Assembly (NCBI GenBank): GCA_020628915.1
Contig: JAHDEI010000003.1
Location: forward strand, 1,859 to 65,858
Source of the DNA: Minisyncoccota bacterium
Lineage (GTDB): Bacteria; Patescibacteriota; Minisyncoccia; Phycocordibacterales; GCA-2747955
DNA length: 64,000 bases
Direction: 5' to 3'
Both the position numbers and the translations under genes were made by a program. The notes beneath the pieces were generated by a model. That model was not told the DNA's origin. It worked only from the letters and a program-made list of their open reading frames with translations, and did not search any database. Each line of letters starts with the position of its first letter. The first letter of the stretch is position 1. Positions 452 to 49,194 of this stretch are shown piece by piece.

Positions 452-483
452 GTTACACAAGAAACGTTTCGTGTGAAACAAAA

Positions 484-511
484 TCGTAACGAATGTCGTT
501 ACGATTTTTTG
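484..511 (+). terminator. Rho-independent terminator after pgk.
   Basis: Perfect 9-bp stem tcgtaacga-atg-tcgttacga followed by tttttt. Confidence 0.7.
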
Positions 512-535
512 TTACTTGTGAAACAGTGATATAAT
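509..535 (+). promoter_or_regulatory. Putative sigma-70-type promoter for the CCA-adding enzyme gene.
   Basis: Extended -10 element TGaTATAAT at 527-535 and a weak -35 element TTGTTA at 509-514. It sits 7 nt upstream of the start codon. Confidence 0.35.
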
Positions 536-541
536 GCCTGC

Positions 542-6197: not shown

Positions 6198-6731
6198 ATG
6201 AAACAAACTACTAGAAATATGCTCGCAGGAGGATTGATTGGAGCAACCTTGATGGTTGGGGCTTCGGCATTCGCGGCGATCCCACAAGAGGCAAAAGACG
6301 CTGTAAAGGCTGGAGACTTTGAAGCATTCCAAGCTGCTGTTGAGGGAACAAGAGCAGAGAACTTACCAGAAGAAATTTTTGATTTGAAGGTTGATCTCTA
6401 CGAAGCAAAGCAAGCTGGAGATGAAGATCAAATTGAGTCAATCAAGACTGAATTGAAGGAATACCGATCTGAGAAAAAGGCGGAGCGACAAGCAACCAGA
6501 GAGGCTAGACGTGATGCGGTAGAGTCAGGAGACTATGATGCATTTACTGCACTTGTTCCAGAAGGACGAGATGCGCCTTCTGAAGAGGTATTTGGACTGC
6601 TTGGCGACCTCCACCAGGCACGAGAGGCAGGCGATGATGAAGCAAAAGCAGAAATCAAAGCTGAACTAAAGGAGCTTGGGTTTGAAAAACCACAGCGTAA
6701 GAAAAAGGGTCACAGAGGAGGAAATCAATAA
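6198..6731 (+). CDS. Secreted protein with an internal tandem repeat. Function unknown.
   Basis: Signal peptide MKQTTRNMLAGGLIGATLMVGASAFAA. There are two repeats of about 60 aa (AVKAGDFEAFQAAVEG...IKTELKE and AVESGDYDAFTALVPEG...IKAELKE). The protein is strongly acidic and coiled-coil-like. Confidence 0.55.
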   Translation: MKQTTRNMLAGGLIGATLMVGASAFAAIPQEAKDAVKAGDFEAFQAAVEGTRAENLPEEIFDLKVDLYEAKQAGDEDQIESIKTELKEYRSEKKAERQATREARRDAVESGDYDAFTALVPEGRDAPSEEVFGLLGDLHQAREAGDDEAKAEIKAELKELGFEKPQRKKKGHRGGNQ

Positions 6732-6862
6732 AGTGACATAAAACAAGATTTGCTGCGTATTAATATATGTAGGCGACTGTTATGCAGTCGTTTACACAAA
6801 TAACAAAGCAAAAACATTCGCAAATATATAACTACTTATATATTTACTACAAAACTACTACC

Positions 6863-6890
6863 AAAACCGCCATATCGGCGGTTTTTGGTT
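6863..6890. terminator. Bidirectional rho-independent terminator between the secreted-protein gene and xth.
   Basis: aaaa-ccgcc-atatc-ggcgg-ttttt. Confidence 0.7.
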
Positions 6891-6915
6891 TGTTTGTCAG
6901 ATTTGTTGAATGAAT

Positions 6916-7713
6916 TTAGATATTCACCTCAATTGATACAGGGCAATGATCTGATCCATGAATATCATCGTGTATTTGGGCGGTTTTGAGTTTGCCCTTG
7001 AGTGATTCTGAAATGAGAAAATAATCAATGCGCCAGCCGGAATTGTTTTTCCGAGCATTAAATCGGTAGGACCACCATGAATATTTTTCGATGGTGTCTG
7101 GGTGCAAGTACCTGAATGTATCTATGAAACCTTGTGAAACGTAATTTGTGAAACCCTCGCGCTCTTTATCCGTGAAACCTGGATTTCCTGGATTTTTCTC
7201 TGTTGTTCTGTTGTTTTGTGGGTTTTTGAGATCAATTTCTGTGTGGGCAACGTTGAGATCGCCACAGAGAATAACAGGTTTCTTTTTCTCGAGTTTTTTG
7301 AGGTATTTAAGGAACAGTACATCCCACTCTTTGTGCCTATAATCGACACGTGCCAGATCAGGCTTTGAATTCGGAGTGTAGACGTTTACTAGATAATACT
7401 TTTTATATTCAGCGGTAATAACCCGACCTTCGTCATTTGCGAGATCAAGCCCTTTGATTTCATTTGAAATAGAAATTGGTTCTTGTTTTAAAAAAACTGC
7501 AGTTGAAGAATAACCCTTTTTAATTGCAGAATTAAAGTATTGATATCCATGTTTGGGAAATAGTTCCGCAGCAAATCCATTAATTTGTTCTGGCTGCGCC
7601 TTGGTTTCCTGTAGACAGATGATATCTGGGTCTTCAGACAATAAAAAGTCGACGGCTCCGTCTTTATCTTTCCATGCTCTGAATCCGTTCACGTTCCATG
7701 AGATTGCTTTCAT
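6916..7713 (-). CDS. xth: Exodeoxyribonuclease III / AP endonuclease (EEP family).
   Basis: MKAISWNVNGFRA...ICLQETKA...C-terminal SDHCPV. The protein is 265 aa, typical of ExoIII. Confidence 0.85.
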   Translation of the reverse strand: MKAISWNVNGFRAWKDKDGAVDFLLSEDPDIICLQETKAQPEQINGFAAELFPKHGYQYFNSAIKKGYSSTAVFLKQEPISISNEIKGLDLANDEGRVITAEYKKYYLVNVYTPNSKPDLARVDYRHKEWDVLFLKYLKKLEKKKPVILCGDLNVAHTEIDLKNPQNNRTTEKNPGNPGFTDKEREGFTNYVSQGFIDTFRYLHPDTIEKYSWWSYRFNARKNNSGWRIDYFLISESLKGKLKTAQIHDDIHGSDHCPVSIEVNI

Positions 7714-10778: not shown

Positions 10779-10849
10779 TGCGGGTGGGGAGAATCGAACT
10801 CCCGTCCTCTGCTTGGAAGGCAGATATTCTACCACTAAACTACACCCGC
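10779..10849 (-). tRNA. tRNA-Gly (anticodon TCC). The 3-prime CCA is not encoded.
   Basis: Reverse complement reads GCGGGTGTAGTTTAGTGGTAGAATATCTGCCTTCCAAGCAGAGGACGGGAGTTCGATTCTCCCCACCCGCA. It folds as a cloverleaf with an anticodon loop CUUCCAA and a T-arm GTTCGATTC. Confidence 0.85.
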
Positions 10850-15473: not shown

Positions 15474-15502
15474 TAAACCCCCATTACATGGGGGTTTTTT
15501 CT
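15474..15502 (+). terminator. Rho-independent terminator.
   Basis: aaaccccca-ttaca-tgggggttttttc. Confidence 0.8.
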
Positions 15503-15524: not shown

Positions 15525-15553
15525 TTGACTCATTAACAAATAAATGCTATTAT
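15525..15553 (+). promoter_or_regulatory. Promoter of the 9-gene operon. It carries the same spacer motif as the promoter at 13514.
   Basis: TTGACT at 15525-15530, a 17-nt spacer cATTAACAAATAAATgc, then TATTAT at 15548-15553. Confidence 0.5.
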
Positions 15554-15624
15554 TAATTCAATTCGCACGTTTTGTGTGAAGGAACGTTCTTTGACAACAA
15601 AATAGGAGAAGAAAGGAACAAAAA

Positions 15625-17397
15625 ATGAAAAACTCAATTTTCAAAACAGTGGGAGTTGCACTTGCAACACTCACGTGCTTTTTAGCTGTGTCTCCGGCTG
15701 CACACGCAGGTGTGCAAACAGAGACACCAAAACCCTTGTCTGAGCAATCGATGCCGACAACGGGAAACTACAATACCGATAACGTACAGCGCATGCCGGT
15801 TATTGCATGGGGTGCTGATTTGGCAACCATTCATGCTAACGGTGGTGCAACCACAGCGAGTGGATCGTATATGGATCGTGCAGGGCTTGATATAAAGCTC
15901 TATCGCCAAGACGACTTTGCTCAACAGGTTCGGGATTTTAAATCCGGCAAAACAAATTACCTGCGAGGAACCGCCGGTATGATTTTTGCAGCCTCAGATG
16001 TGTTATGTGATGACAACCGGACATGTCCGGAAGTCATTTATAATATGTCACGTTCAGCCGGCGGTGACGCTTTGGTTGTGCGAGGTGGAATAAATAACAT
16101 CTCAGATTTGCGTGGAAAGACTATTGGTCTCCAGCTATACGGTCCCCACCAGAGGCTTCTGACAGAAGTCCTGGCGTTGGGTAATCTCAAGCCAAGTGAT
16201 GTAAATGTTAAATGGTATCGGGATCTTGACGTAAATGGTCAACGCTCAGCAAGTCATGCTTTCGAAGCAGGCGAAGTTGACGCGGCATTCGTGATTATTC
16301 CGGATGCGTTACTGTTCACTGAGGGTGATGCAGCAATTCGTGGAGCAAAAACGGTCTTTTCGACCAAGTCTCTCGACTATATCATTTATGATTTGATTGC
16401 TGTTCGGCCTGATTATGCAAAAGCGCAACCTGAAAAGATCGCCGCGGTTACTTCAGCTCTGCTGAAAGCCAACGAAGATCTTCGAAGTGTCATCTCGAAC
16501 AAAAATAGTTCGGGTTATGACAAGATTGTGCGCGATGGAGCAGACCTGCTTTTAGGAGCCGGTAATGATCCAGAGATGCAGGCAATTGTAGCCGACATGT
16601 ATATGTTTGATGCCAAAATGCAGGGATGGACAGGGAATGTTCGATTCCTTACAGGTGAGTCAGATGGTAAACGCGAGTCAATTTCTCTGCAGTCAATTGC
16701 AGGACCAACTGGCCAAACATTTGCTCAACTGAATTTGGTTGAAAACGCATCTGCGCCTAAGCAGGTAACTGTATACAATCATAACTGGAAAGCATTGCAG
16801 TCGGGTCTTTCTGAGAAGTTTGGTGTTACCGCACCAACACTCAATAAGACTGTGGTTACTCGTGTTATTCAAAATCGTTCTAAGAGCGGCACATTGGATA
16901 ATGACAAAATCGTAGAATTTCCTATCTTTTTTGGAGCTAACCAAACAGAATTTTCGGCAAACCAGTATGCATCTGATTTTGACCGCGTGATGGAACTTGC
17001 CTCTCGAGGCAGTGGTATTGCGATTGTCATGGAGGGTCATTCTGATCCAGTCGAATACTTGCGTAAAAAACACAAAGACGGCGTTGCGCCATCTCAGTAT
17101 AAGCAAATTCAGCAAGCTGCTAAGAATCTTTCTCGGGAGCGTGCAGAATCTGTGAAGCAAGCAATTCTGGACTATGCAAAATCACAGGGTGTTCGGATTT
17201 CATTCGAAGACGCAGTGATTATTGGTCACGGCGTGGCAAAGCCTGTTAATGGCACATGCCAGTGGGACTATAATGGTCGTTCGGTTTCTGATCCGTGTAA
17301 GCCTGAAAACCAAACTATGTTTGAGCAAAATCGTCGAGTCGAGTTTTCACTCGTTGTAGTGGAAGCCGAATCTGACGTATTTATCGATGACTTTTAG
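15625..17397 (+). CDS. Exported protein. It fuses a periplasmic substrate-binding-like domain (NMT1/SsuA/TauA-like) to a C-terminal OmpA/MotB peptidoglycan-binding domain.
   Basis: Signal peptide ending AHA. The middle region resembles SsuA-type binding proteins. The C-terminus (FFGANQTEFSANQYASDFDRVMELASRGSGIAIVMEGHSDPVEY...NRRVEFSLV) matches the OmpA_C pattern. Confidence 0.6.
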   Translation: MKNSIFKTVGVALATLTCFLAVSPAAHAGVQTETPKPLSEQSMPTTGNYNTDNVQRMPVIAWGADLATIHANGGATTASGSYMDRAGLDIKLYRQDDFAQQVRDFKSGKTNYLRGTAGMIFAASDVLCDDNRTCPEVIYNMSRSAGGDALVVRGGINNISDLRGKTIGLQLYGPHQRLLTEVLALGNLKPSDVNVKWYRDLDVNGQRSASHAFEAGEVDAAFVIIPDALLFTEGDAAIRGAKTVFSTKSLDYIIYDLIAVRPDYAKAQPEKIAAVTSALLKANEDLRSVISNKNSSGYDKIVRDGADLLLGAGNDPEMQAIVADMYMFDAKMQGWTGNVRFLTGESDGKRESISLQSIAGPTGQTFAQLNLVENASAPKQVTVYNHNWKALQSGLSEKFGVTAPTLNKTVVTRVIQNRSKSGTLDNDKIVEFPIFFGANQTEFSANQYASDFDRVMELASRGSGIAIVMEGHSDPVEYLRKKHKDGVAPSQYKQIQQAAKNLSRERAESVKQAILDYAKSQGVRISFEDAVIIGHGVAKPVNGTCQWDYNGRSVSDPCKPENQTMFEQNRRVEFSLVVVEAESDVFIDDF

Positions 17398-17422
17398 GTT
17401 AATGGAATTACGGAGAAAAAAC

Positions 17423-18193
17423 ATGAAACGTTATACATCATTTGCAATTATTGCATCACTTGCTCTTGGAGCCTGTGAAGCAAAGCAAGTTGAAGGAACG
17501 CCACCCAGTCCGTCATACTCGGAAGCCCCAGTTATTGATACTGGTATTCCGATTTGGCCTTCGGTTATCGAAGATGCACAGCTTACATCAGGACCGGACT
17601 TTAGTTTATCTAAAGATCCATTCACGACAAATATCGTTGTTGCCGTTGATACAAGCGGCTCAATGGGTGGTGAGTGTTCTGGTTCCCGGAAGATTGATTC
17701 TGCAAAAACTGCTATTCGCACGTTTTTGCGATCACTTCCTGCTGATGCAGCAATCGGAGTCGTCGAGTTTGGTAACTCAACCGGTGTGGTTGAACCTTTA
17801 GCTTTTGACAACATCGAGCTCGTCTCGAGTTCTGTTAATGCCTTGAGTTCTGGTGGGGGAACCCCCATGACGAATGGCATTCAGATTTCATACAACGAAT
17901 TAGTTCGTCGTGGGGTCAAACAGCAAGGGTACGGGTATTATCATTTGATAGTGCTCGGTGATGGTGCTCCAGATAACACTCGGTCTACCGTTAAGGAATT
18001 AGATCGTATTGCAATGGAAACACCTATCAATGTCCACACGATTGGTTTTTGTGCTGATTTGGGTGTCCTCGACCGTGAGGGCGTCCAATACCGCGAAGCC
18101 AGCAATGCAAAAGACTTGGTTTCCGCATTTTCTGCGGTCCTTGCTGAATCAACGGTAACATTTACCGGCAGCGGAGGATTCCAAGACTTTTAA
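17423..18193 (+). CDS. von Willebrand factor type A (vWA) domain lipoprotein.
   Basis: Lipobox LALGAC. MIDAS motif VVAVDTSGSMGG...GGGTPMTNG...VLGDGAPDN. GGAG ribosome-binding site before the ATG at 17423. The track start 17387 overlaps the upstream gene. Confidence 0.7.
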   Translation: MKRYTSFAIIASLALGACEAKQVEGTPPSPSYSEAPVIDTGIPIWPSVIEDAQLTSGPDFSLSKDPFTTNIVVAVDTSGSMGGECSGSRKIDSAKTAIRTFLRSLPADAAIGVVEFGNSTGVVEPLAFDNIELVSSSVNALSSGGGTPMTNGIQISYNELVRRGVKQQGYGYYHLIVLGDGAPDNTRSTVKELDRIAMETPINVHTIGFCADLGVLDREGVQYREASNAKDLVSAFSAVLAESTVTFTGSGGFQDF

Positions 18194-18251
18194 TTCAGTG
18201 AATTGGATTCGGGCTGTGCCCGAATCCGCCACAGACATTAGGAGAAACAAA

Positions 18252-19832
18252 ATGAAACCTATCCATATTTTTGGTGTGGTTATATTTGCCCTCATTATTG
18301 TCTCTGGTGTGATATTTGGTGCTCGTCTCTTTTTAGAAGATGAACATCGAGGAGCAACCAGCGACAGAGGGAAAACTAAAACCGAATTTGTTGTCGGGAT
18401 GGACTCGTGGCCTGGTTACATGCCACTTTGTTCAGACAGATTGCAACACCAATTATATAAATCTGAGAAGATCGACATACGATGCGTCTCAGATGGCGGT
18501 AATTATGCAGAGCGCATGGAAAAATTGGCCTCAGGTGAATTAGATTTTGCGGTTACAACTGTAGACGCACATCTTTTGACTGGGCCCCAAGAAAAATTTC
18601 CAGGCGCAATTGTCATGGTTATCGATCAATCAAAAGGTGGTGACGCCATTGTGGCGTGGCCAGACAAAGTTAACGGTATTAACGATCTTGGAACAACTGA
18701 TGGTTGGAAAGTGGCGTTTACGCCTGATTCCCCATCACATCAACTACTGCGAAGCGTTGGAAACGATTTCGGTATTTCAACACTCTTATCTGACGGAAAC
18801 TGGAAAGTAGAAGCAGATGGAGCAGGTGATGCATTACAAAAATTTCTCAAGCGAGAAGTGGATGTAGCAGTTGTTTGGGAGCCACATGTCACAGCAGCAG
18901 TTGCCGCTGGAGCAAAGGTGATTCATTCATCTGATGCAACAGACAAGGTAATTGTGGACGTACTATTGGTCAATCGTGACTTAGTACGCCCGAGCACGAA
19001 AGAATACGCCCAAGTCCAATCGGTCTTGCGCGAATATTTTTCTGCTTTGCGCGATATTCGTGATGACAGCAACATTATGTTGAAAGAAGCGCGATCATTC
19101 GTTAAGACATATGGCGGTCAAAGACTCTCTGATTCAGAACTCCAATCGATGCTCGATGGTGTTCAATGGATTAATCTTCGTGATAACGGAGAGTCTTGGT
19201 TTGGTATCGGGGGTGAATCCCCATACTACGGGCTTCGTGAAGCACATGAGTTTGCTCTGACTATTATTCGGTCTGAAAAAGGTGAAGATTTTCTTTCCCT
19301 CTTCAGAGCTGAACAAGTCATCCTGAGTGATCTTATATCTACCCTCTATAAAGATGGTGGATATCTTGGTGAGGCAGGCACAACCGAAACTGATCCATTA
19401 CGGAAAGCTTTTGGTGGCCTGACGGAAACTGAGTGGAATCGTCTACGGACGGTTGCATCTCTAAAGTCACGCCCTGTTATCTTTAGATCAGGAACAACTG
19501 ATTTAGATGAGGGCTCGCGTCGTGCACTTGCTGAGGCCATGGAAGATTTTAAGCGTTATCCAAAATCTCGCTTAGAACTTCGTATTGGATATCGTACTGG
19601 GGCAACCCAAGACGAGACACAAGTCGCACAAGATCGTTCTCAAGAGCGAGCACTAGCGGTACAAAACTACATCATTGATACATTTGGGGTCGACCCAGAT
19701 CGTATTCGTGTGTATGTACCTGCACCACAAGACCTGCGTTCTATGATTCGGCAACGAAGTGGCGAAAGTCGCCGGGCCTATATGGCTCGTCTGAGGCAGG
19801 TGGAACTGGTGTTAAAAGCAACACCACTGTAA
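18252..19832 (+). CDS. Membrane-anchored paralog. It has a substrate-binding-like domain and a C-terminal OmpA-like domain.
   Basis: N-terminal TM helix, an SsuA-like segment (FVVGMDSWPGYMPL...DFAVTTVDAHLL), and an OmpA-like C-terminus (RPVIFRSGTTDLDEGSRRALAEA...RALAVQNYIIDTFGVDPDRIRV). Start at the AGGAGA-preceded ATG at 18252. Confidence 0.55.
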   Translation: MKPIHIFGVVIFALIIVSGVIFGARLFLEDEHRGATSDRGKTKTEFVVGMDSWPGYMPLCSDRLQHQLYKSEKIDIRCVSDGGNYAERMEKLASGELDFAVTTVDAHLLTGPQEKFPGAIVMVIDQSKGGDAIVAWPDKVNGINDLGTTDGWKVAFTPDSPSHQLLRSVGNDFGISTLLSDGNWKVEADGAGDALQKFLKREVDVAVVWEPHVTAAVAAGAKVIHSSDATDKVIVDVLLVNRDLVRPSTKEYAQVQSVLREYFSALRDIRDDSNIMLKEARSFVKTYGGQRLSDSELQSMLDGVQWINLRDNGESWFGIGGESPYYGLREAHEFALTIIRSEKGEDFLSLFRAEQVILSDLISTLYKDGGYLGEAGTTETDPLRKAFGGLTETEWNRLRTVASLKSRPVIFRSGTTDLDEGSRRALAEAMEDFKRYPKSRLELRIGYRTGATQDETQVAQDRSQERALAVQNYIIDTFGVDPDRIRVYVPAPQDLRSMIRQRSGESRRAYMARLRQVELVLKATPL

Positions 19833-19848
19833 AGAAAGGAGAGTGTGT

Positions 19849-20640
19849 ATGTCGAAAAATCTTTCGACAAACCCATTTTCACAACGTTCAATCAGTAAGC
19901 ATGTCAAAACAAAGGCAACAAATAATGTCGTTACCCTTGGTTCCGGAGCATTTGCTTTGGGAATTGTGGGGATAACGGCTGCTGCCACCGGAGGGTTACC
20001 TCTCTGGGCATTGCTTGCTGCTGGCGGTTGTGGATTGGTGAGTGTCGGTAGTCTAACTAACGACCTCACTGCCAGAAAGCATTCGATTGTCAGTCGGTAT
20101 TTGCAAGAGGCTAAACAGTTTCTTGCAGAGAAAGCTGATCGTCATGCACAATCTCTCTTGGTTCGCGCGGAAGACTCAGGTAATGAAAAAGCTATACAGC
20201 AGATTCAAGAACTAGAGACTTCCTTCCGTGATTTTCGAGAATTAGTAGACGGCAAGTTACAAGACTCAGGTTTTGCACATGCTCGTTTTATTGGTTCTGT
20301 TGAACAAGCTCGTGAAGAAGCACTTTCAATGATCGAAGAAATTCTCGATAGCCTTGATGCTATTGAGAGTATCCCCGATGACTTAGGTGATCGGGTTGAT
20401 TCGTCAAATGATCGTGTCTCTGAGCTACGACGAGAGAGGTTGGGACATAAAGACAGGGTATATGCTCGAATTGACGAGCTATATGCCGGGGTCGAACACT
20501 GCCTGACAAAAATTTCAGAGTTGTCTATCAAAATTCCCCGCATAGGGAAGGGTGATAATTCTGATGCTGTATATCAGCGCAGTTTAAGAGAGTTAGAGAG
20601 TCTAGGCTCTCTTGCACAAACAATCAACAGAGAAACATAG
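19849..20640 (+). CDS. Membrane protein with two N-terminal TM helices and a coiled-coil C-terminal domain. It may be the XpaC-like partner of TelA.
   Basis: TM region VVTLGSGAFALGIVGITAAATGGLPLWALLAAGGCGLVSV, then a helical acidic domain. AAGGAGAG ribosome-binding site. It lies immediately upstream of the TelA-like gene, as xpaC lies upstream of yaaN in Bacillus. The homology is only inferred. Confidence 0.35.
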   Translation: MSKNLSTNPFSQRSISKHVKTKATNNVVTLGSGAFALGIVGITAAATGGLPLWALLAAGGCGLVSVGSLTNDLTARKHSIVSRYLQEAKQFLAEKADRHAQSLLVRAEDSGNEKAIQQIQELETSFRDFRELVDGKLQDSGFAHARFIGSVEQAREEALSMIEEILDSLDAIESIPDDLGDRVDSSNDRVSELRRERLGHKDRVYARIDELYAGVEHCLTKISELSIKIPRIGKGDNSDAVYQRSLRELESLGSLAQTINRET

Positions 20641-20651
20641 AAAGGTATATT

Positions 20652-21875
20652 ATGGTTTCTACAGCAATGGCCGCCGATGTGGCGGCTCAGGAAATCCAAT
20701 CGGTTCAGCCCAAGAAATTTACACTTGATGTGAATAGAATTGAGTCTGAAACAAAGCCGGTTGTGGTTGCCGATCCGGAAATGCATGAACGTGCAAACGG
20801 TTTGATTGAGTCGCTTTTGGCGATGGATCTTGATGCAGATCAAGAGGCAATCAAAACCGAAGTCTCACGTGCTGGCTCTAATTTGTTGCGAGGTGGAGGA
20901 CGCAAAAGCGAACTTCTCAGTGCAAAAATGAAAGAGCTAATGCAAGACAAAACTGGTGGCGAAAACGTTGCCAACGATTTGATTGCACTTCGAGATGAGG
21001 TTTCAAAACTTGATCCGGGCCGTGTGAATTTTTCGCCGGGCGGGATCGGTCGATTTGTCGAAAAAATGCCAATTATTGGTGGGAGAGTGAAAAAATATCT
21101 CAACCAGTATGAACGCGGTGATGTGGTTATTAACCAAATCGCTGACGGCCTGCGGGCTGGCCAAGCCAGACTCGAAAATGACAATGTGATCTTGCGTGAT
21201 GACCAGGCTGAATGGCGGATGGCCTCTATTGCCTTGAAAAAGGAAGCAGAGTTCCTCAAGTTAGTCAGCGATCAGTTGCAGTCTCGTATTGCAACTATGG
21301 AAAATCAAGAACATAAAGGTTTTCTGCAACGTGAAGTGGTATTCCCACTGATGAAGACTCACAGTCGGCTTTTAACTGCAGCAGCAGTTGATCAGCAGGG
21401 TGTTTTGTCCGCAGAAGTCCTGGTTCGTGCAAACACGGCACTAATCGAAGGCATCGAAGATGCGCTCTACGTGACCATCCGTGCACTACGCATCGGTGTC
21501 ACTCTTGCCGTCGCTCTTGCTCACCAGAAAAAAGTTCTAGGTGGGCTTGAAAAGACGCAAGACATGACCAACAAAATGCTGGAACGTAACGCAGACATGC
21601 TTGGTACTCAAGCAGCTGACGTTTATAAACGTGCTAGTGGTGTTGGTGTCAATGTTGATACATTGCAAGCAGCAATGGACAAATCCATTGCGGCCATCAA
21701 GTCTTTGGATGATTTCCGTATGGAAGCCATTCGAACAATGTCAGGCCAGATCAAGCAACTTGAGCAGGTTACTGACAATGGTGAAAAAGCAATTCGTGAG
21801 ATGGAAGCAGGCAACAAGATTGCCGATGACGTCTCTACAGCAGGCTTCTTTGCATATGCGCAGAAGGCTGCCTAA
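20652..21875 (+). CDS. TelA/KlaA (toxic anion resistance) family protein.
   Basis: Length of 407 aa and motif series (LRDEVSKLDPGRVNF...GRVKKYLNQYERGDVVINQIADGLRAGQARLENDNVILRDDQAEWRMASIALKKEAEFLKLVSDQL) that follow the TelA family pattern LDP...KY...Y...Q..I..I...L......L..DN..L......LW. Confidence 0.6.
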   Translation: MVSTAMAADVAAQEIQSVQPKKFTLDVNRIESETKPVVVADPEMHERANGLIESLLAMDLDADQEAIKTEVSRAGSNLLRGGGRKSELLSAKMKELMQDKTGGENVANDLIALRDEVSKLDPGRVNFSPGGIGRFVEKMPIIGGRVKKYLNQYERGDVVINQIADGLRAGQARLENDNVILRDDQAEWRMASIALKKEAEFLKLVSDQLQSRIATMENQEHKGFLQREVVFPLMKTHSRLLTAAAVDQQGVLSAEVLVRANTALIEGIEDALYVTIRALRIGVTLAVALAHQKKVLGGLEKTQDMTNKMLERNADMLGTQAADVYKRASGVGVNVDTLQAAMDKSIAAIKSLDDFRMEAIRTMSGQIKQLEQVTDNGEKAIREMEAGNKIADDVSTAGFFAYAQKAA

Positions 21876-21941
21876 CACTCTATTCTGCAGCCTTCGTGGC
21901 TGCCGAAACCTCATTACGTAATTTTTGAGAAAGGAAAAAAA

Positions 21942-23066
21942 ATGAAACGTAATTTTCTGTTGACTACAACAATGGCGATCACTCTAGCACTTGGTGCTTG
22001 TGGTGATTCTTCGAAACCGGCAACTCAAACTCCGGCCCCTGCTGCGACATCGTCAAATGTTGTGATGGGTAGTGGAGATACTTGTCGTTTCGCTTGGTCG
22101 CATTACACCGGCTGGGAACCAGTCTACATGATGCAATCAGAAGGGATCGCAGAACGAATGGGCGCGAAATATAATGTAAATATTACGATTTCGCCGCCAA
22201 TGGACTATGTCGAATCGTTGACGCAGTTCGCTGCGGGAACATTTGATTTTGTGACTTCAACCGGCATGGACGCATTGACGATTCCTGCCGCCGGAGGCAC
22301 AGTCACTGACTATATCGTTGCAGGTGATTTTTCAAATGGCAACGACGCAATCGTGGTAATCGATCCAGCCGGCTCGATCCAATCTGTTGCTGACCTGAAA
22401 GGCAAGGAGGTTATCCTTGTTGAAGGATCAGTGTCAGACTTCATGCTTTCGAAAGCTTTGGATGATTATGGCTTATCTGGGTCAGATGTTGTTCGCAAGA
22501 ACACAAGTGATGCAGATATCGGTTCTATTCTGGCTACTGCTTCTGACGGAACAGTTGCTGTGACATGGAACCCGATCGTACTACAAACACTCGAAGCTCG
22601 GAAAAATGATGGCGCCCGAAGTGTCTTTGATTCATCACAGACACCTGGCCTTATCATGGATGGTATTCTGGCAAACGATGGTGCCACTGAAGCCTGTCGT
22701 TATGCAGTTACTGCAGCCTGGTATGAAGCCGTCTCTCTGATTCCGCAGTCGCGCTCAGCAAATGCTGATCCGGCGGCATATGAAAGAATGGCCCGCTTTG
22801 CCTCTGGTAATGCGGCAAACTCAGTTGAGCTCTTTGATGCCCAGCTGGGGACGACCCGGATGTTTTACACACCAATGGACGGTATTTCTGTAATGGAAAG
22901 CCAGCAGCTAAAAGACAACATGGAATTCATCCGTGAGTTCGCAGCTGGTTCTGGGTTGATTGACAGCGCAGACGTCGTCGGTGTTTCGTTCCCGGACGGT
23001 TCCGTTCAAGGGGGTTCAAACGTAAAATTACGTTTTACTTCCAAATATATGAACGGCGTTCGTTAA
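21942..23066 (+). CDS. ABC transporter substrate-binding lipoprotein, NitT/TauT (nitrate / sulfonate / bicarbonate, SsuA-like) family.
   Basis: Lipobox LALGAC followed by the SsuA/NMT1-like sequence GWEPVYMMQSEGIAERMG...FDFVTSTGMDAL. It is genetically linked to the permease and ATPase of the same family. Confidence 0.7.
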   Translation: MKRNFLLTTTMAITLALGACGDSSKPATQTPAPAATSSNVVMGSGDTCRFAWSHYTGWEPVYMMQSEGIAERMGAKYNVNITISPPMDYVESLTQFAAGTFDFVTSTGMDALTIPAAGGTVTDYIVAGDFSNGNDAIVVIDPAGSIQSVADLKGKEVILVEGSVSDFMLSKALDDYGLSGSDVVRKNTSDADIGSILATASDGTVAVTWNPIVLQTLEARKNDGARSVFDSSQTPGLIMDGILANDGATEACRYAVTAAWYEAVSLIPQSRSANADPAAYERMARFASGNAANSVELFDAQLGTTRMFYTPMDGISVMESQQLKDNMEFIREFAAGSGLIDSADVVGVSFPDGSVQGGSNVKLRFTSKYMNGVR

Positions 23067-23100
23067 TTTTTCTCCTATGAGGACTCCCTTTCTGGGGGTC

Positions 23101-23155
23101 CTCAGCGTCACAGGATGTGTGTCCTGTCTGATGAGTCCAAAAGGACGAAACGCAG
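23101..23155 (+). ncRNA. Type III hammerhead self-cleaving ribozyme (copy 1).
   Basis: Helix III 5-prime strand and GUC cleavage triplet at 23104-23109 (predicted cleavage after C23109). Helix I hairpin acagga-ugugug-uccugu (23110-23127). CUGAUGA (23128-23134). Stem II gucc-aaaa-ggac (23135-23146). GAAA (23147-23150). Helix III 3-prime strand cgcag (23151-23155). A 10-bp hairpin (gaggacuccc...gggggucctc) lies immediately upstream. Confidence 0.75.
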
Positions 23156-23197
23156 TTGTTCATTTACATACAATATACGACAATGTTTTTAATGTAT

Positions 23198-23252
23198 GTG
23201 AAACGATATTGTGTAGGGCAGATATGGTCTTCACAATATCGTTTCACATGAG
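23198..23252 (+). repeat. Perfect 17-bp inverted repeat with a 20-nt loop, downstream of the ribozyme in the 5-prime UTR of the permease gene.
   Basis: atgtgaaacgatattgtg ...(20 nt)... cacaatatcgtttcacat. Confidence 0.7.
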
Positions 23253-23292
23253 GCGATTTTAAAACTCGCCTTAACGATAGAGAGGAGTTAAT

Positions 23293-24123
23293 ATGAGAAA
23301 AAAATCTATCTTTGGTCTTTATGGCCACATTAAACAGCCGTGGAATTTCCTGTTAGGGGTAATTCCAATTGCATTTTTATTCATAGGATTTCAGGTTTTG
23401 AGCTGGAATTATCTTGCTGATAATCCTGACGGAAAACTATTCCGTGGGTGGGAAAACGTATTTGCAGCTTTGCATCGGATGGCAACAGTCAAAGATGTTA
23501 TGTCTGGTGAATATTTGTTATGGAGCGACATGTTCGTGACATTAAAGCGCCTACTCGTCGGGTTAGGGTTAGCAGTTTTCTCTGCTGCTTTGCTCGGGGT
23601 TCATATGGCGTTCTTCCCATGGATTCGGGCAATCTTTTTGCCGTTTATCCGTCTTGTTTCCAATCTGCCGGTCATCATTGTGATCTCAATTGTCTTGCTA
23701 CTAGCAGGTACAGGAGAGTTCTTTAAGGTGGCGATGGTATTTCTTGGAACTGTGTTTTTGTTGAGTCGTGACATCTTTCGATCAGCTGATGCTGTATCAA
23801 GACAACGGGTTACCAAAACATTGACACTTGGTGCATCGCCGCTTGGTGTTATTTACCGAGTGATGCTGCCTAGGTTGGCACCAGATATCATTGCCGCAAT
23901 CAGACTTGCTTTGCCAGGCGCATGGATTTATGCATTGGTGAGCGAGATGACGATTTCTACTGATGGTCTTGGCTATCGAGTCGCAGTCATGCGTCGGCAC
24001 ATGGAAATGGACGTCATTATTGGGTACGTATTGGTGGTTTCACTACTGGCGATACTTATCGATTTTGTCTTAAAGACAATTTCTGAGAAACGTTATCCAT
24101 GGCACAACCCGGAGGGTAAATAA
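23293..24123 (+). CDS. ABC transporter permease, NitT/TauT (SsuC-like) family.
   Basis: Six TM helices. EAA-like loop (GASPLGVIYRVMLPRLAPDIIAAIRLAL). AGAGGAG ribosome-binding site. Confidence 0.75.
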   Translation: MRKKSIFGLYGHIKQPWNFLLGVIPIAFLFIGFQVLSWNYLADNPDGKLFRGWENVFAALHRMATVKDVMSGEYLLWSDMFVTLKRLLVGLGLAVFSAALLGVHMAFFPWIRAIFLPFIRLVSNLPVIIVISIVLLLAGTGEFFKVAMVFLGTVFLLSRDIFRSADAVSRQRVTKTLTLGASPLGVIYRVMLPRLAPDIIAAIRLALPGAWIYALVSEMTISTDGLGYRVAVMRRHMEMDVIIGYVLVVSLLAILIDFVLKTISEKRYPWHNPEGK

Positions 24124-24125
24124 CA

Positions 24126-25079
24126 ATGACCACCACAGATAAACTTGAAAAATTGATCGATGATTTAGATCAAAAAACAGTTGGTTCACCTAGAGAATAT
24201 GTTTTACATCTATTAGATGTACACAAATCTTATGACGATGGTCGTGTCCAGGTTTTACATGATCTTGATCTCAAAATTACCGAAGGCGAATTTGTAACTC
24301 TTGTTGGTCCATCTGGATGCGGCAAGTCAACACTTTTGCGAGCGGTTTTGGGTGAAGAAGATGTTACCGAAGGCACTGCGACAATTCGTGGTTCTGCAAT
24401 TAAGACGCCGGATGTGACACGAGGAATTGTCTACCAAGACCATTCTTTGTTCCCGCATTTAACAGCATGGCAAAATGTCATGATGGGTCCGAAATTGCAG
24501 CAGTCGTGGTGGAAATTCAAAAAAGTTTCTGAGGCAGACAAGCAGTTGGCACGAGAATACCTCGAGCGAGCAGGTATGTCTGAACACCTCGACAAGAAAC
24601 CATATGAGCTTTCCGGCGGTCAAAAACAACGTATCGCGATCATTCAAGCATTGATGGCTAAACCAGAAATTTTATTGATGGACGAACCATTTTCTGCGCT
24701 AGATGAGACAACTCGTGAAGATATGCAGCTGCTGCTGCTTGAGCTATATGAACAGACTGGCATGACCATTTTGTTTATCACTCATGATCTGACTGAGGCG
24801 TTATATCTTGGAACCAGAAACATTGCTTTGTCCCAATACTATGTTGACGGACGAGGTGATGAAACAAAAGGGGCCAGGATAGTTTCTGATATTCGGCTGC
24901 GTGAAATTGGTACAGCGATTTCTCCAAGTGAGAAGTCGTCACCGAAATTACATGCATTGAAAGATAAAATCCGTGCTGAGGCATTTGATCCTGACCATAT
25001 TAGACATGCAAAGGACTTTACGTTGACTCATCCGGATTCATTTCAAACACTAACCGAGCGCGAAGCCGCTGTCGTATAG
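24126..25079 (+). CDS. ABC transporter ATP-binding protein, NitT/TauT (SsuB-like) family.
   Basis: Walker A GPSGCGKST, signature LSGGQKQRIAI, Walker B LLMDEPFSALD. It overlaps the permease stop by the sequence ATAACAATGA. Confidence 0.85.
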   Translation: MTTTDKLEKLIDDLDQKTVGSPREYVLHLLDVHKSYDDGRVQVLHDLDLKITEGEFVTLVGPSGCGKSTLLRAVLGEEDVTEGTATIRGSAIKTPDVTRGIVYQDHSLFPHLTAWQNVMMGPKLQQSWWKFKKVSEADKQLAREYLERAGMSEHLDKKPYELSGGQKQRIAIIQALMAKPEILLMDEPFSALDETTREDMQLLLLELYEQTGMTILFITHDLTEALYLGTRNIALSQYYVDGRGDETKGARIVSDIRLREIGTAISPSEKSSPKLHALKDKIRAEAFDPDHIRHAKDFTLTHPDSFQTLTEREAAVV

Positions 25080-25085
25080 AACCAT

Positions 25086-25110
25086 AAACCCCACCTTGGT
25101 GGGGTTTTTT
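25086..25110 (+). terminator. Rho-independent terminator of the 9-gene operon.
   Basis: aaacccca-ccttgg-tggggtttttt. Confidence 0.8.
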
Positions 25111-25153: not shown

Positions 25154-25228
25154 TGGTGCACCCGCCAGGACTCGAACCTGGAATGACGGTTCCGAAGACC
25201 GTAGTGATATCCATTTCACCACAGGTGC
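25154..25228 (-). tRNA. tRNA-Arg (anticodon TCG). The 3-prime CCA is encoded.
   Basis: Reverse complement reads GCACCTGTGGTGAAATGGATATCACTACGGTCTTCGGAACCGTCATTCCAGGTTCGAGTCCTGGCGGGTGCACCA. Anticodon stem ACGGT/ACCGT, loop CUUCGGA, T-arm GGTTCGAGTCC. Confidence 0.8.
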
Positions 25229-37710: not shown

Positions 37711-37762
37711 AAAGAGCCAAGGTATCATTTCGCCTTTGGTTCTTTAAAAACAAGAGGAAAGT

Positions 37763-47082: not shown

Positions 47083-47164
47083 ACAAATCCTTAGACTTGA
47101 CAAGTAGTCAAATTTAGTATAGAATACTCCCATAAGTTCTTTGAGAAATTTATGGTTAAGAGTA

Positions 47165-47216: not shown

Positions 47217-47285
47217 AAATCACACGGATATGGCGTAAACGTGTCCGTGTGACACATCAATCTTGAAAAAACAGAGGAGTTCATC

Positions 47286-47699: not shown

Positions 47700-47735
47700 C
47701 TCTTAACCAGTTTCGGACCCAGTCAAATGGGTCCG

Positions 47736-47788
47736 TTCTGTCTGAAGATGTGTATCTTCACTGATGAGTCCAAAAGGACGAAACAGAA
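47736..47788 (+). ncRNA. Type III hammerhead self-cleaving ribozyme (copy 2).
   Basis: Helix III 5-prime strand uucug (47736-47740), then U47741 and the cleavage nucleotide C47742 (GUC). Perfect 7-bp helix I ugaagau-gugu-aucuuca (47743-47760). CUGAUGA (47761-47767). Stem II gucc-aaaa-ggac (47768-47779). GAAA (47780-47783). Helix III 3-prime strand cagaa (47784-47788), fully complementary. Confidence 0.8.
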
Positions 47789-47941
47789 TGTTCTTTGAAA
47801 TCATAAACAAGTATAGAGTTTATGAATCGGCCCCCATGTACATTGATGTGTATATAGGAGCCGATTCAATGTAGTCCGATCGGCATCGCCCAATCGGGCT
47901 ACTCAAAACTTATATTTAGCTTAGAAAAGAAGGAGACGCAC

Positions 47942-49135: not shown

Positions 49136-49194
49136 TATGTGCTGGGTGGCGTCACTGACGTCACCCACACAATTCTTGTTTATGAAGTACTTAA

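What the first reader, a model, noticed from the sequence alone, without database searches (positions are those of the whole stretch)
23080..23160. Complete type III hammerhead ribozyme inside an ABC-transporter operon, between the binding-protein and permease genes.
Seen directly in the sequence. 5-prime ..cagcgUC^ acagga-ugugug-uccugu CUGAUGA gucc-aaaa-ggac GAAA cgcag.. contains every invariant hammerhead nucleotide. Those are the CUGAUGA box, the GAAA box, G10.1/C11.1 closing stem II, the A15.1-U16.1 pair, and a GUC cleavage triplet. Helix I is closed, and the 5-prime and 3-prime ends meet in helix III, which is the type III topology.

It sits 35 nt after the stop of the SsuA-like gene, right after a 10-bp hairpin (gaggacuccc/gggggucctc), and about 135 nt before the permease start. 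Self-cleavage would split the polycistronic mRNA. The upstream fragment would end in a hairpin plus a 2-prime,3-prime-cyclic phosphate. The permease/ATPase fragment would begin with a 5-prime-OH on a stable helix I hairpin.

That would be a built-in mechanism for differential stability or stoichiometry of binding protein versus membrane components. Hammerheads are known in bacteria and phages, but an intra-operon position in a transporter locus of a small-genome bacterium is unusual.
Basis: partly seen in the sequence, partly recalled or inferred. Interest (0 to 1): 0.85.

Follow-up and report, generated by a model that had tools for sequence, protein, structure and literature searches.

The report
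Hammerhead ribozyme splitting a transporter operon
A genuine self-cleaving hammerhead RNA sits between two genes of a transporter operon in a tiny-genome (CPR) bacterium, one of many such ribozymes placed at gene junctions in these bacteria, where they probably cut long messages into separate mRNAs.

Summary
Window 23102-23156 (+) is a complete type III hammerhead with every core nucleotide; GUC cleavage falls after C23109. It lies 35 nt after the binding-protein stop and 136 nt before the permease start. Rfam RF00008 gives 44.1 bits, below the 48.5 gathering score.

A second copy at 47735-47789 scores 51.6 bits. It shares the same 24-nt core but has compensated helices I and III. A family model built from 72 relatives scores the two copies 71.9 and 77.3 bits. 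All three helices covary.

The host is a Patescibacteria (CPR) bacterium, and this subfamily is abundant there. Copies typically follow a same-strand gene. A GC hairpin often abuts helix III on the 5' side, and about a third are followed by a boxA-like box (GYUCUUUR) on the 3' side.

The site-2 copy is kept, with compensatory changes, at the orthologous junction in two of three close relatives. The reported copy is absent from five distant syntenic ABC loci, so it is a lineage-specific gain.

The ribozyme is a new member of a known kind, and polycistron processing is already the standard hypothesis. The CPR-wide hairpin|ribozyme|box layout appears unreported. Cleavage is untested.

The parts
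21942..23066 (+). Upstream cistron: NitT/TauT-type (NMT1/phosphonate-binding fold) substrate-binding protein, 374 aa
   Evidence: ORF list. Pfam PF09084 and PF12974. Homologues are named NitT/TauT or putative urea ABC substrate-binding protein.
23078..23104 (+). 11-bp GC-rich hairpin (TGAGGACTCCC / GGGGGTCCTCA, loop TTTCT) ending directly at the 5' strand of helix III. No U-tract follows. It is the proposed 3'-end protector of the upstream cleavage fragment.
   Evidence: Family-wide, a stem of at least 6 bp with at least 3 G-C pairs ends within 20 nt of U16.1 in 55 of 108 copies, against 70 of 560 random positions. The 3' end of the hairpin peaks 3-5 nt before U16.1. The terminator scan does not flag it.
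23102..23156 (+). Type III hammerhead ribozyme, the reported copy. Helix III is 23105-23108 with 23150-23153. The GUC triplet is 23107-23109, with cleavage between 23109 and 23110. Helix I is 23110-23115 with 23122-23127, loop UGUGUG. CUGAUGA is 23128-23134. Helix II is GUCC-AAAA-GGAC, 23135-23146. GAAA is 23147-23150.
   Evidence: RF00008 44.1 bits. Family model R1 71.9 bits. Covariation in the family.
23157..23168 (+). Degenerate boxA-like box, UGUUCAUUUACA, starting 4 nt after helix III. Position 6 is A instead of U.
   Evidence: Position 6 is one of the positions where transversions are not tolerated in lambda boxA (PMC3177189), so this copy is probably weak.
23196..23249 (+). Long near-perfect hairpin (21-nt arms, 95% complementary) in the leader of the permease gene, followed by a second hairpin at 23251-23271 and the RBS GAGAGGAG. 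Function unknown.
   Evidence: the weak miRNA-type Rfam hits only reflect the hairpin. Equivalent long hairpins follow the box at 47163-47215 and 47823-47868.
23293..25079 (+). Downstream cistrons: permease (23293-24123) and ABC ATPase (24126-25079)
25086..25107 (+). Intrinsic-terminator-like site closing the operon: a 9-bp stem followed by TTTCTTTGGT
47714..47735 (+). 8-bp GC hairpin (CGGACCCA / TGGGTCCG) abutting the second hammerhead, 15 nt after the stop of the 137-aa ORF (47286-47699)
47735..47789 (+). Second type III hammerhead of the window. The core and helix II are identical to the first copy over 24 nt. Helix I is UGAAGA/UCUUCA and helix III is 7 bp. The GUC triplet is 47740-47742, with cleavage after C47742.
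   Evidence: RF00008 51.6 bits, above the gathering score. R1 77.3 bits. Orthologous copies in L124 (70.4 bits) and L122 (64.9 bits) carry compensatory changes.
47789..47800 (+). BoxA-like box UGUUCUUUGAAA directly after the second hammerhead. It leads into hairpins (47801-47825 and 47823-47868), the RBS and the 397-aa ORF (47942-49135).
   Evidence: The box is conserved at this junction in all four relatives, whether or not the ribozyme is present.
47097..47144 (+). Promoter-like site of the site-2 operon (TTGACA-17-TAGAAT, 47097-47125) with the same box (GTTCTTTGA, 47136-47144) starting 10 nt after the -10 hexamer
   Evidence: The promoter, the spacing and the box are all conserved in L124 and L125.

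Best explanation
Window 23102-23156 is a genuine, probably active, cis-cleaving type III hammerhead ribozyme, transcribed as part of the binding-protein/permease/ATPase mRNA of a Patescibacteria (CPR) bacterium.

**Proposed mechanism (inferred, not shown).** When RNA polymerase has passed the ribozyme, it folds and cuts after C23109.
- The upstream binding-protein mRNA then ends in an 11-bp hairpin plus a 5-nt tail with a 2',3'-cyclic phosphate.
- The permease/ATPase mRNA begins with a 5'-OH whose first nucleotide is already paired in helix I. The rest of the ribozyme scaffold follows, then a boxA-like leader box, long hairpins and the RBS.
- The short 4-bp helix III lets the two products separate quickly.
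- The cut uncouples the fate (decay, and possibly translation and transcriptional polarity) of the two halves of the operon without needing a terminator, a promoter or a protein RNase.

**Wider pattern.** This is one instance of a subfamily that is common in CPR genomes. At these junctions the ribozyme takes the position that a promoter (with or without a preceding terminator) takes at ordinary junctions of the same genome: 3' hairpin | ribozyme | box | hairpin | RBS.

**Shown by computation:** the motif, its family membership, covariation, gene context and orthologous retention of the sister copy.
**Inferred:** cleavage in vivo, the role of the hairpin, the role of the box, and the direction of any stability effect.
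For: **Identity**
- All invariant core nucleotides and the type III topology are present.
- A second copy at 47735-47789 passes the Rfam gathering score. It shares a 24-nt identical core (0.00 expected) with different, compensated helices I and III.
- In 72 gap-free relatives, all 6 helix I pairs show double-sided changes.
- Helix III pairs 16.3-15.3 and 16.4-15.4, which my selection did not constrain, are paired in 71 and 70 of 72 copies with 4-5 pair types each.
- Helix II covaries in pattern-independent hits.
- Loops 1 and 2 are more conserved than the stems. That fits the loop-loop contacts natural hammerheads need at physiological Mg2+ (PMC6155905).

**Context**
- The operon has no internal promoter-like site and a terminator only after the ATPase gene.
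- In the family, co-directional junctions hold the ribozyme in sense orientation 36 to 9. It starts a median of 71 nt after the upstream stop codon.
- A GC hairpin abutting helix III is about 4-fold enriched.
- The box follows within 3-12 nt of the GAAAC in 36 of 112 copies. The 6-mer GTTCTT occurs 24 times downstream against 0 in the control stretch.

**Selection**
- The orthologous site-2 junction keeps the ribozyme in L124 and L122, whose helicase is 77-79% identical to the window's. Helices I and III are compensated, including a G-C to A-U switch at 16.2-15.2.

**Precedent**
- Bacterial hammerheads flanking genes cleave polycistronic transcripts in vitro (PMC3088659).
Against: - No cleavage data exist for this or any CPR copy.
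- The RF00008 score of the reported copy is 4.4 bits below the gathering score.
- Helix III is only 4 bp, and the upstream hairpin competes for the two positions that could extend it.
- Minimum-free-energy folding recovers the hairpin and helices I and II but not helix III.
- The ribozyme is absent from all five syntenic TelA/binding-protein/permease/ATPase loci found (L121, L127/128, L129/130, L131). It is also absent from one of three close relatives at site 2 (L125). It is therefore dispensable and easily gained or lost.
- The box at the reported site has a transversion at a critical boxA position.
- The direction of the stability effect is unknown. From general knowledge, a 5'-OH end marks the glmS product for RNase J1 decay in Bacillus, so cleavage could destabilise rather than protect the downstream half.
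Confidence: 0.7

Rival explanations
1. The ribozyme is an active but essentially selfish or neutral insertion. It would be a small repeat that spreads to hairpin/box joints in CPR genomes and is tolerated there, with no adaptive role in setting the binding-protein to permease ratio.
For: - It shows presence/absence polymorphism at otherwise conserved junctions. It is absent in L125 at site 2 and in five syntenic ABC junctions.
- Up to 6-7 copies lie on one strand within 8 kb among small unannotated ORFs next to a MazF-like toxin gene (L006).
- Copies within one genome are often near-identical (L101, L002, L099).
- The ABC block has a higher GC content than its surroundings (0.45-0.47 against about 0.40). 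The ribozyme therefore entered after, or independently of, acquisition of the operon.
Against: - Placement is precise, with sense orientation favoured 36 to 9.
- Orthologous copies are kept with compensatory changes across relatives whose helix I sequences have diverged, which indicates purifying selection on the fold.
- The two window copies differ at 5 of 6 helix I pairs, so they are not recent duplicates.
- No transposase, reverse transcriptase or paired ribozymes are seen at either window site.
- Target-site duplications were not tested systematically.
Confidence: 0.2
2. The main purpose is transcriptional rather than mRNA stability. Co-transcriptional cleavage would sever any Rho (or other factor) tracking along the upstream RNA from the polymerase. 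The box just downstream would be a boxA that loads NusB/NusE, keeping transcription processive into the distal cistrons. This would make the element an anti-polarity module.
For: - The box matches the boxA core. UGUUCUUUG at site 2 keeps G2, C5, U6 and U8, the positions contacted by NusB/NusE (PMC3177189).
- It lies immediately after helix III in about a third of copies.
- It is enriched about 4-fold in sense orientation upstream of genes: 30 against 8.
- It is conserved at four orthologous junctions, and exactly 10 nt after the -10 hexamer of conserved promoters.
- Hammerhead-less junctions show a hairpin directly followed by the box, as in rrn boxB-boxA.
- The idea that RNA processing can uncouple Rho from the polymerase has been raised for CRISPR arrays (PMC7665894).
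Against: - The reported site has a degenerate box (A at position 6).
- The only rRNA leader available from a CPR genome (L049) has near-matches only, not the box itself.
- The presence of NusB and Rho in this genome was not tested.
- About two thirds of family members have no box.
- The box could equally be a translation or stability element of the leader.
Confidence: 0.25
3. The motif is an inactive relic or a chance resemblance, and the junction is processed, if at all, by protein RNases acting on the hairpins.
For: The RF00008 score is below the gathering score. Helix III is short. Thermodynamic folding does not predict helix III.
Against: - Every invariant core position is intact.
- The family model gives E about 1e-19, and nothing else in 64 kb scores above 11 bits.
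- The 24-nt core is identical to a copy that passes the Rfam threshold.
- A 4-bp helix III is the family norm and is supported by covariation.
Confidence: 0.04

Closest known systems
Rfam RF00008 Hammerhead_3: type III hammerheads of bacteria and prophages (Perreault et al. 2011, PMC3088659)
   Same: - Same catalytic core, type III topology and GUC site.
- Lies in an intergenic position between co-transcribed genes.
- Several copies can flank single genes or short gene blocks.
- The proposed role is cutting polycistronic RNA into gene-length mRNAs.
   Different: - Published bacterial cases are mostly tied to prophage or integrase contexts.
- The two window copies sit in chromosomal operons (one conserved in synteny across relatives) of a CPR bacterium, a group for which I found no hammerhead report.
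- This subfamily has a fixed compact geometry: 6-bp helix I with a UGUGUA loop, a GUCC-AAAA-GGAC helix II and a 4-5 bp helix III.
- It also has recurrent flanks, a 5' hairpin and a 3' box, that are not part of the Rfam model.
Twister and hammerhead ribozymes in bacterial 3' UTRs and polycistrons (reviewed in PMC6765202)
   Same: [quoted passage not shown]
   Different: That idea rests on reporter constructs and gene neighbourhoods. No natural case has a defined purpose. Here the flanking hairpin and box give a concrete, testable architecture.
Intercistronic stabiliser hairpins in ABC operons, such as the REP hairpins between malE and malF in E. coli
   Same: - The junction lies between a binding-protein gene and membrane-component genes.
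- A hairpin at the 3' end of the upstream fragment protects it from 3' exonucleases.
- The outcome is more binding protein than permease.
   Different: There the cut is made by protein endonucleases. Here an RNA would cut itself, leaving cyclic-phosphate and 5'-OH ends.
RiboJ-type synthetic insulators: a hammerhead plus a hairpin placed upstream of an RBS
   Same: A type III hammerhead cleaves off the upstream RNA so that the downstream gene gets a defined, structured 5' end regardless of what precedes it.
   Different: RiboJ is engineered. The element here is natural, and is combined with an upstream 3' hairpin and a conserved leader box.
boxA of rrn operons, lambda nut sites and CRISPR leaders: the NusB/NusE binding site (PMC3177189, PMC7665894)
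   Same: The box GYUCUUUR(A) matches the boxA core, including G2, C5, U6 and U8. It lies early in transcripts and is often next to a hairpin.
   Different: - It is found here in ordinary mRNA leaders and after ribozymes.
- Binding is untested.
- An exact match is not seen in the one CPR rRNA leader examined.
- The copy at the reported site is degenerate.
glmS ribozyme (general knowledge; mentioned in PMC6765202)
   Same: It is a cis-cleaving ribozyme inside a bacterial mRNA whose cut changes the fate of the downstream coding part through its 5'-OH end.
   Different: glmS is metabolite-dependent, lies in a 5' UTR, and has an unrelated fold. No ligand-sensing element is evident here.

Membership tests
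Hammerhead ribozyme, type III (RF00008) | Invariant catalytic core: C3 U4 G5 A6 N7 G8 A9, G12 A13 A14, the A15.1-U16.1 pair and a cleavable N-U-H triplet | tested here: met
   CUGAUGA is 23128-23134, GAAA is 23147-23150, U23108 pairs with A23150, and GUC is 23107-23109. The same holds at 47735-47789.
Hammerhead ribozyme, type III (RF00008) | Three helices around the core, with helices I and II capped by loops and helix III open; G10.1-C11.1 closes helix II | tested here: met
   See the Rfam alignment and the R1 alignment. Helix I has 6 bp, helix II has 4 bp with G10.1-C11.1, and helix III has 4 bp.
Hammerhead ribozyme, type III (RF00008) | Helices supported by compensatory changes in related sequences | tested here: met
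   - Helix I: 6 of 6 pairs show double-sided changes.
- Helix III: pairs 6-52 and 5-53 are paired in 71 and 70 of 72 copies, with 4-5 pair types each.
- Helix II: 3 of 4 pairs covary in pattern-independent hits (this alignment is fitted to the model).
- Orthologous copies in L124 and L122 are compensated.
- Caveat: helix I pairing of at least 5 bp was a selection criterion for alignment A1.
Hammerhead ribozyme, type III (RF00008) | Score at or above Rfam's curated gathering threshold (operational rather than defining) | tested here: inconclusive
   The reported copy scores 44.1 against 48.5 bits and the sister copy 51.6 bits. The deficit comes from the short helix III and the short loop 2. The family-specific model gives 71.9 bits.
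Hammerhead ribozyme, type III (RF00008) | Loop 1 to loop 2 tertiary contacts that give fast cleavage at physiological Mg2+ | not testable with these tools
   Indirect evidence only. Loop positions are more conserved than the stems: T16 and A42 are invariant, and A40 and A41 are at least 90% conserved. The requirement is described in PMC6155905.
Hammerhead ribozyme, type III (RF00008) | Site-specific self-cleavage giving 2',3'-cyclic phosphate and 5'-OH ends | not testable with these tools
   This needs in vitro transcription or end-specific RNA-seq.
boxA (NusB/NusE binding site) | Single-stranded core of about 8-9 nt matching UGCUCUUUA, with G2, C5, U6 and U8 | tested here: inconclusive
   The site-2 box UGUUCUUUG and the promoter-proximal boxes at 15586, 37739 and 47136 fit. 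The site-1 box UGUUCAUUU has A at position 6. Critical positions are taken from PMC3177189.
boxA (NusB/NusE binding site) | The same box present in rRNA operon leaders of the same lineage | tested here: inconclusive
   Only one CPR 16S leader was available (L049). It holds GAACTTTGAAAA and AATCTTTCTTC 170-230 nt upstream of the 16S start. These are near-matches, not the box itself.
boxA (NusB/NusE binding site) | Binding by NusB/NusE and an effect on termination; nusB present in the genome | not tested
The window was not fully annotated for nusB or rho.
Intrinsic (Rho-independent) terminator, considered for the hairpin upstream of the ribozyme | A GC-rich stem-loop followed directly by a U-tract | tested here: not met
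   The 23078-23104 hairpin is followed by GCGUCACAGG and is not flagged. The site-2 hairpin is flagged only marginally, with tail TTCTGTCTGA. Genuine terminators in the window have clean T-runs (15476-15500; 25086-25107).

The most novel reading that the evidence does not exclude
In Patescibacteria, hammerheads may be a standard, promoter-free way of marking a cistron boundary.

The proposed composite RNA module is: a 3'-protecting hairpin stacked on helix III, then a self-cleaving ribozyme, then a boxA-like leader box. It stands where a promoter followed by the same leader box stands at ordinary junctions.

Each cistron of a long transcript would then be released as its own mRNA with defined ends, while the polymerase (possibly Nus-modified through the box) carries on. 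In genomes with reduced RNase and regulator sets, self-cleaving RNA would have taken over a job done elsewhere by protein RNases and by extra promoters and terminators. That would give bacterial hammerheads a concrete physiological role.
Probability: 0.35. Interest if true: 0.75.

Novelty: new member of a known kind. Interest (0 to 1): 0.55.

Why it matters
What genomic hammerheads do in bacteria is still described as an open question (PMC6155905, PMC6765202).

This locus, and the CPR subfamily it belongs to, offers unusually clean material for addressing it:
- The ribozyme sits inside ordinary chromosomal operons rather than prophages.
- It has recurrent flanks that suggest what each cleavage product is for.
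- Natural presence/absence variants exist at orthologous junctions (window, L124 and L122 against L125).
- One small operon (47097-49210) has the same leader design fed once by a promoter and once by the ribozyme.

Saccharibacteria have recently become genetically tractable (PMC10633639), so the hypothesis could be tested in vivo.

If the box is a true boxA, it would also link self-cleaving RNA to processive antitermination, which has not been described.

For the narrower claim handed to me, the result is mostly confirmatory: a real hammerhead, of a known class, in a known kind of position.

Tried and rejected
1. **Source record.** Exact look-up of the window's binding protein returned nothing. 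Cluster look-up gave only 'NCBI, 78-kb contig, unnamed'. Taxonomy was therefore inferred from helicase relatives, all of which are Patescibacteria/Parcubacteria where named.
2. **Closest relative at site 1.** The closest binding-protein relative (L120, 50% identity) sits on a contig that ends 11 nt after the stop codon, so it is no use for the junction.
3. **Box as a -35 promoter element.** Rejected. At four promoters it lies 10 nt downstream of the -10 hexamer. In several loci it is immediately followed by the RBS and start codon, leaving no room for a -10 hexamer and a leader.
4. **Box as the U-tract of a terminator.** The scan flags hairpin-plus-box in L121 and L125 as terminator-like. However, the conserved G2 and C5, the box's position after promoters, and the clean T-runs of real terminators in this genome all argue against it.
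5. **Another ribozyme in L125.** I asked whether L125 carries another known ribozyme class where its relatives have the hammerhead. No Rfam family fits; only hairpin-driven miRNA noise appears.
6. **More copies in the window.** None were found with filters off. The other CUGAUGA...GAAAC strings lack the helices.
7. **rRNA-leader test of the boxA idea.** Only one leader was available and the result is ambiguous.
8. **Gene context.** My ORF-based statistics are noisy, because short spurious ORFs overlap intergenic regions: 46 of 137 copies were called 'inside an ORF'. Only the orientation ratio and the distances are used.
9. **Unused scans.** The metagenome and viral-contig scans were not used, because the genome collection and the protein-anchored loci already answered the questions they could have addressed.
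Full report
**1. The observation**

- An 11-bp hairpin (23078-23104) comes first, followed by cagcGUC^ACAGGA-UGUGUG-UCCUGU-CUGAUGA-GUCC-AAAA-GGAC-GAAA-CGCag.
- The GUC triplet is 23107-23109, so cleavage would fall between C23109 and A23110.
- The upstream ORF (21942-23066) is an NMT1/phosphonate-type substrate-binding protein. The downstream ORFs are a BPD_transp_1 permease (23293-24123) and an ABC ATPase (24126-25079).
- The ribozyme begins 35 nt after the stop codon and ends 136 nt before the permease ATG.

A default Rfam scan of the window does not list this site, but it does list a Hammerhead_3 at 47735-47789 (51.6 bits, gathering score 48.5). A sensitive scan of 22950-23350 gives RF00008 at 23102-23156 with 44.1 bits, E 1.4e-8. 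The lost bits come from two non-canonical outer pairs of helix III and a 4-nt deletion in loop 2.

The two sites share an identical 24-nt stretch, CTGATGAGTCCAAAAGGACGAAAC, against 0.00 expected by chance. They differ in helices I and III in a compensated way.

**2. Is it a real hammerhead?**

I searched one genome per species (GTDB representatives) for CTGATGAGTCC-N3-6-GGACGAAAC. By record title, about 83 of these are Patescibacteria/CPR (Saccharibacteria, Paceibacterota and others).
- Of 130 pattern matches, 112 have a full type III architecture at the expected geometry.
- Seventy-two distinct copies align without gaps over 58 nt. On that alignment all six helix I pairs show double-sided changes.
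- Helix III pairs 16.3-15.3 and 16.4-15.4, which my selection did not constrain, are paired in 71 and 70 of 72 copies with four to five pair types. The next positions are paired in only 47 and 27 of 72.
- Helix III in this subfamily is therefore 4-5 bp. The reported copy (U-A, G-C, C-G, G-C) is typical, and its C-G/G-C pairs are a double compensation relative to the U-A/C-G consensus.

A covariance model built from this alignment (R1) scores the two window copies at 77.3 and 71.9 bits, and nothing else in the 64 kb scores above 11 bits (filters off). In the fetched loci it finds 171 matches, many with a different helix II sequence that my search pattern could not have selected. On 76 of them, helix II pairs switch U-A/C-G and C-G/U-A in 15-16 sequences while G10.1-C11.1 stays constant (this alignment is fitted to the model).

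Loop positions are more conserved than the stems. That fits the loop-loop contacts natural hammerheads need for fast cleavage at cellular Mg2+ (PMC6155905).

Thermodynamic folding recovers the upstream hairpin and helices I and II, but not the short helix III.

I conclude that this is a genuine member of the type III hammerhead class. Activity itself cannot be tested here.

**3. The host and the operon**

The window's proteins are singletons from one unnamed NCBI 78-kb contig. Every named relative of its UvrD/PcrA helicase is from Patescibacteria/Parcubacteria, and unnamed relatives reach 79% identity. The host is therefore a CPR bacterium.

Between the binding-protein and permease genes there is no sigma-70-like site. 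The only clean terminator (25086-25107) follows the ATPase gene. Both points are consistent with co-transcription across the ribozyme.

The second ribozyme lies inside a compact unit:
- a promoter-like site (TTGACA-17-TAGAAT, 47097-47125);
- a 137-aa ORF;
- a hairpin (47714-47735);
- the ribozyme;
- a 397-aa ORF;
- a terminator-like site (49197-49210).

**4. What surrounds the ribozyme**

Two flanking features recur.

*Upstream hairpin.* A GC-rich hairpin abuts the 5' strand of helix III.
- A stem of at least 6 bp with at least 3 G-C pairs ends within 20 nt of U16.1 in 55 of 108 copies, against 70 of 560 random positions.
- Its 3' end peaks 3-5 nt before U16.1, which is right where helix III begins.
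- Neither window hairpin is followed by a proper U-tract.

*Downstream box.* A short box follows the 3' strand of helix III.
- GTTCTT occurs within 30 nt downstream in 24 copies against 0 in a control stretch, and TTCTTT in 26 against 1.
- The box starts 3-12 nt after GAAAC in 36 of 112 copies.
- Site 2 has UGUUCUUUGAAA and the reported site has the diverged UGUUCAUUUACA.

The box is not tied to the ribozyme.
- Across all loci it is about four-fold enriched in sense orientation upstream of genes: 30 against 8, with a coding background of 0.05-0.10 per kb.
- In the window it also occurs just downstream of three promoter-like sites (15586, 37739, 47136).
- In the window and two close relatives, the promoter of the site-2 operon is followed by the box exactly 10 nt after the -10 hexamer.
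- Both cistrons of that operon therefore have the same leader design (box, long hairpin, RBS), once behind a promoter and once behind the ribozyme.

The box matches the boxA core recognised by NusB/NusE, including G2, C5, U6 and U8 (PMC3177189). The site-1 copy has a transversion at position 6 and is probably weak. The one CPR rRNA leader I could examine (L049) has only near-matches, so the boxA reading remains a hypothesis.

**5. Comparative evidence at the two junctions**

*Site 2.* Three relatives whose helicase is 77-79% identical are syntenic over more than 20 kb.
- The orthologous junction carries a hammerhead in L124 (70.4 bits) and L122 (64.9 bits).
- Their helix I sequences differ, and helix III is compensated down to the 16.2-15.2 pair (G-C in the window, A-U in both relatives, giving AUC and AUA triplets).
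- L125 has no hammerhead there. An unrelated insert of about 95 nt, folding into extra hairpins (z = -6.8), matches no known ribozyme family.
- The 3' hairpin, the box, the long leader hairpin and the RBS are present in all four.

*Site 1.* The close relatives do not have the ABC block next to the UPF0102 gene.
- Five more distant syntenic loci exist with the order TelA, binding protein, permease, ATPase (permease 35-43% identical). One is from a Kaiserbacteria MAG and others are probably not CPR.
- None has a hammerhead at the junction.
- The Kaiserbacteria junction has a short hairpin directly followed by TGTTCTTTACA.
- The block from about 15.6 to 25 kb also has a higher GC content (0.45-0.47) than the rest of the window (about 0.40).
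- The reported copy is therefore a lineage-specific gain, in an operon that may itself have been acquired.

**6. Family-wide gene context**

I used a descriptor that does not depend on the helix II sequence, with crude ORF calls.
- Junctions with both neighbours called are mostly co-directional. There the ribozyme is in sense orientation 36 times against 9.
- Eighteen copies lie between convergent genes and ten between divergent genes.
- The ribozyme starts a median of 71 nt after the upstream stop codon (IQR 48-108).
- Some loci carry 6-7 copies on one strand within 8 kb, one after almost every small ORF. An example is L006, where the array lies next to a MazF-like toxin gene.

**7. Mechanism**

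The best-supported reading is intercistronic self-processing. The cut leaves the binding-protein mRNA ending in a hairpin plus a 5-nt tail with a cyclic phosphate. The permease/ATPase mRNA then starts with a 5'-OH that is already base-paired in helix I.
- The short helix III favours rapid product release.
- The abutting hairpin may stack on helix III before cleavage and protect the 3' end afterwards.

These steps are inferred. The direction of any stability effect is unknown, because a 5'-OH can be either protective or a decay signal depending on the RNase set (general knowledge, from the glmS/RNase J1 case).

A variant reading gives the cut a transcriptional purpose: it would uncouple Rho from the polymerase, with the box reloading Nus factors. 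This has precedent only as a suggestion for CRISPR arrays (PMC7665894).

A selfish-element reading fits the gain/loss pattern and the multi-copy arrays. It fits less well with the sense bias, the precise placement and the compensated orthologues.

**8. Comparison with what is known**

Bacterial hammerheads flanking genes, and their cleavage of polycistronic transcripts in vitro, were reported in 2011, mostly in prophage-like contexts (PMC3088659).

Reviews still call the role of prokaryotic hammerheads open, and they cite differential stability of processed polycistrons as the working idea (PMC6765202, PMC6155905).

In the held literature I found no paper linking hammerheads to Patescibacteria, Saccharibacteria or Parcubacteria, and none linking natural hammerheads to boxA. 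The one paper holding both words is about rRNA antitermination and I did not open it. Subscription journals are not covered.

**9. Verdict**

- The element is a new member of a known kind.
- Its abundance in CPR genomes, the hairpin|ribozyme|box layout, the parallel with promoter-fed leaders, and the natural presence/absence variants at orthologous junctions are the parts worth following up.
- Interest is 0.55.

Noticed in passing
window 15586-15594, 37739-37747, 47136-47144 (also 47790 and 23158): A boxA-like box, G[CT]TCTTT[AG]A, lies at the very start of predicted transcripts. It sits 10 nt after the -10 hexamer at 37724-37729 and at 47120-47125, and 32 nt after the one at 15548-15553. On the + strand, 4 of 8 strict matches fall in the 11.6% of the window that is intergenic.
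   Followed up: yes
window 23196-23249, 47163-47215, 47823-47868: Long near-perfect hairpins (20-26-nt arms) follow the box in three different 5' leaders, between the box and the RBS. Equivalent hairpins occur in the relatives L124, L122 and L125. Their function is unknown; they could be boxB-like, stabilisers or attenuators.
   Followed up: partly
L125 20978-21125: Where its relatives have the hammerhead, this close relative has an unrelated insert of about 95 nt. Together with the 3' hairpin it folds into four consecutive hairpins (z = -6.8). No Rfam family matches, so it could be an undescribed functional substitute.
   Followed up: partly
L006 3300-6450 (also L040, L043, L071, L115): Dense same-strand arrays of 4-7 hammerheads lie within 3-8 kb, one after almost every small unannotated ORF. 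In L006 the array lies just upstream of a MazF/PemK-like toxin gene (6655-7038). The layout is reminiscent of cassette arrays.
   Followed up: partly
window about 15600-25100: The block holding an NMT1-like 590-aa protein, TelA and the ABC transporter has a GC content of 0.45-0.47 against about 0.40 around it. It is missing from the corresponding place in close relatives (L122, L125) but syntenic in distant, partly non-CPR contigs (L121, L127, L129, L131). It is probably a horizontally acquired island.
   Followed up: partly
L020, L024, L029, L064, L103, L119 (Acetobacteraceae, Nitrosovibrio, Asaia): The same core string occurs in GC-rich proteobacterial contigs as ...GCCGC-CTGATGAGTCC-NGAA-GGACGAAAC-CGC..., without the type III helix I geometry. 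R1 gives them only 25-40 bits. They are probably hammerheads of another topology or subfamily.
   Followed up: no
L025 7269-7326 compared with L066 5315-5372: A contig binned as Polynucleobacter carries a hammerhead almost identical to one in a Saccharimonadales MAG (same ribozyme, flanks differ at a few positions). Some 'non-CPR' hits may therefore be mis-binned CPR contigs.
   Followed up: no
window 25157-25228 (-) and 10779-10849 (-): Two tRNA genes lie on the minus strand. The first sits right after the ABC operon's terminator, at the edge of the higher-GC block, which is a typical island boundary.
   Followed up: no
L049 about 299-770 (- strand): This is a Saccharibacteria 16S rRNA leader. 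It has a TTGACA/TAAAAT promoter-like site about 430 nt upstream of the 16S start, and two near-matches to the box (GAACTTTGAAAA and AATCTTTCTTC) 170-230 nt upstream. Two hammerheads lie further upstream on the same strand.
   Followed up: partly
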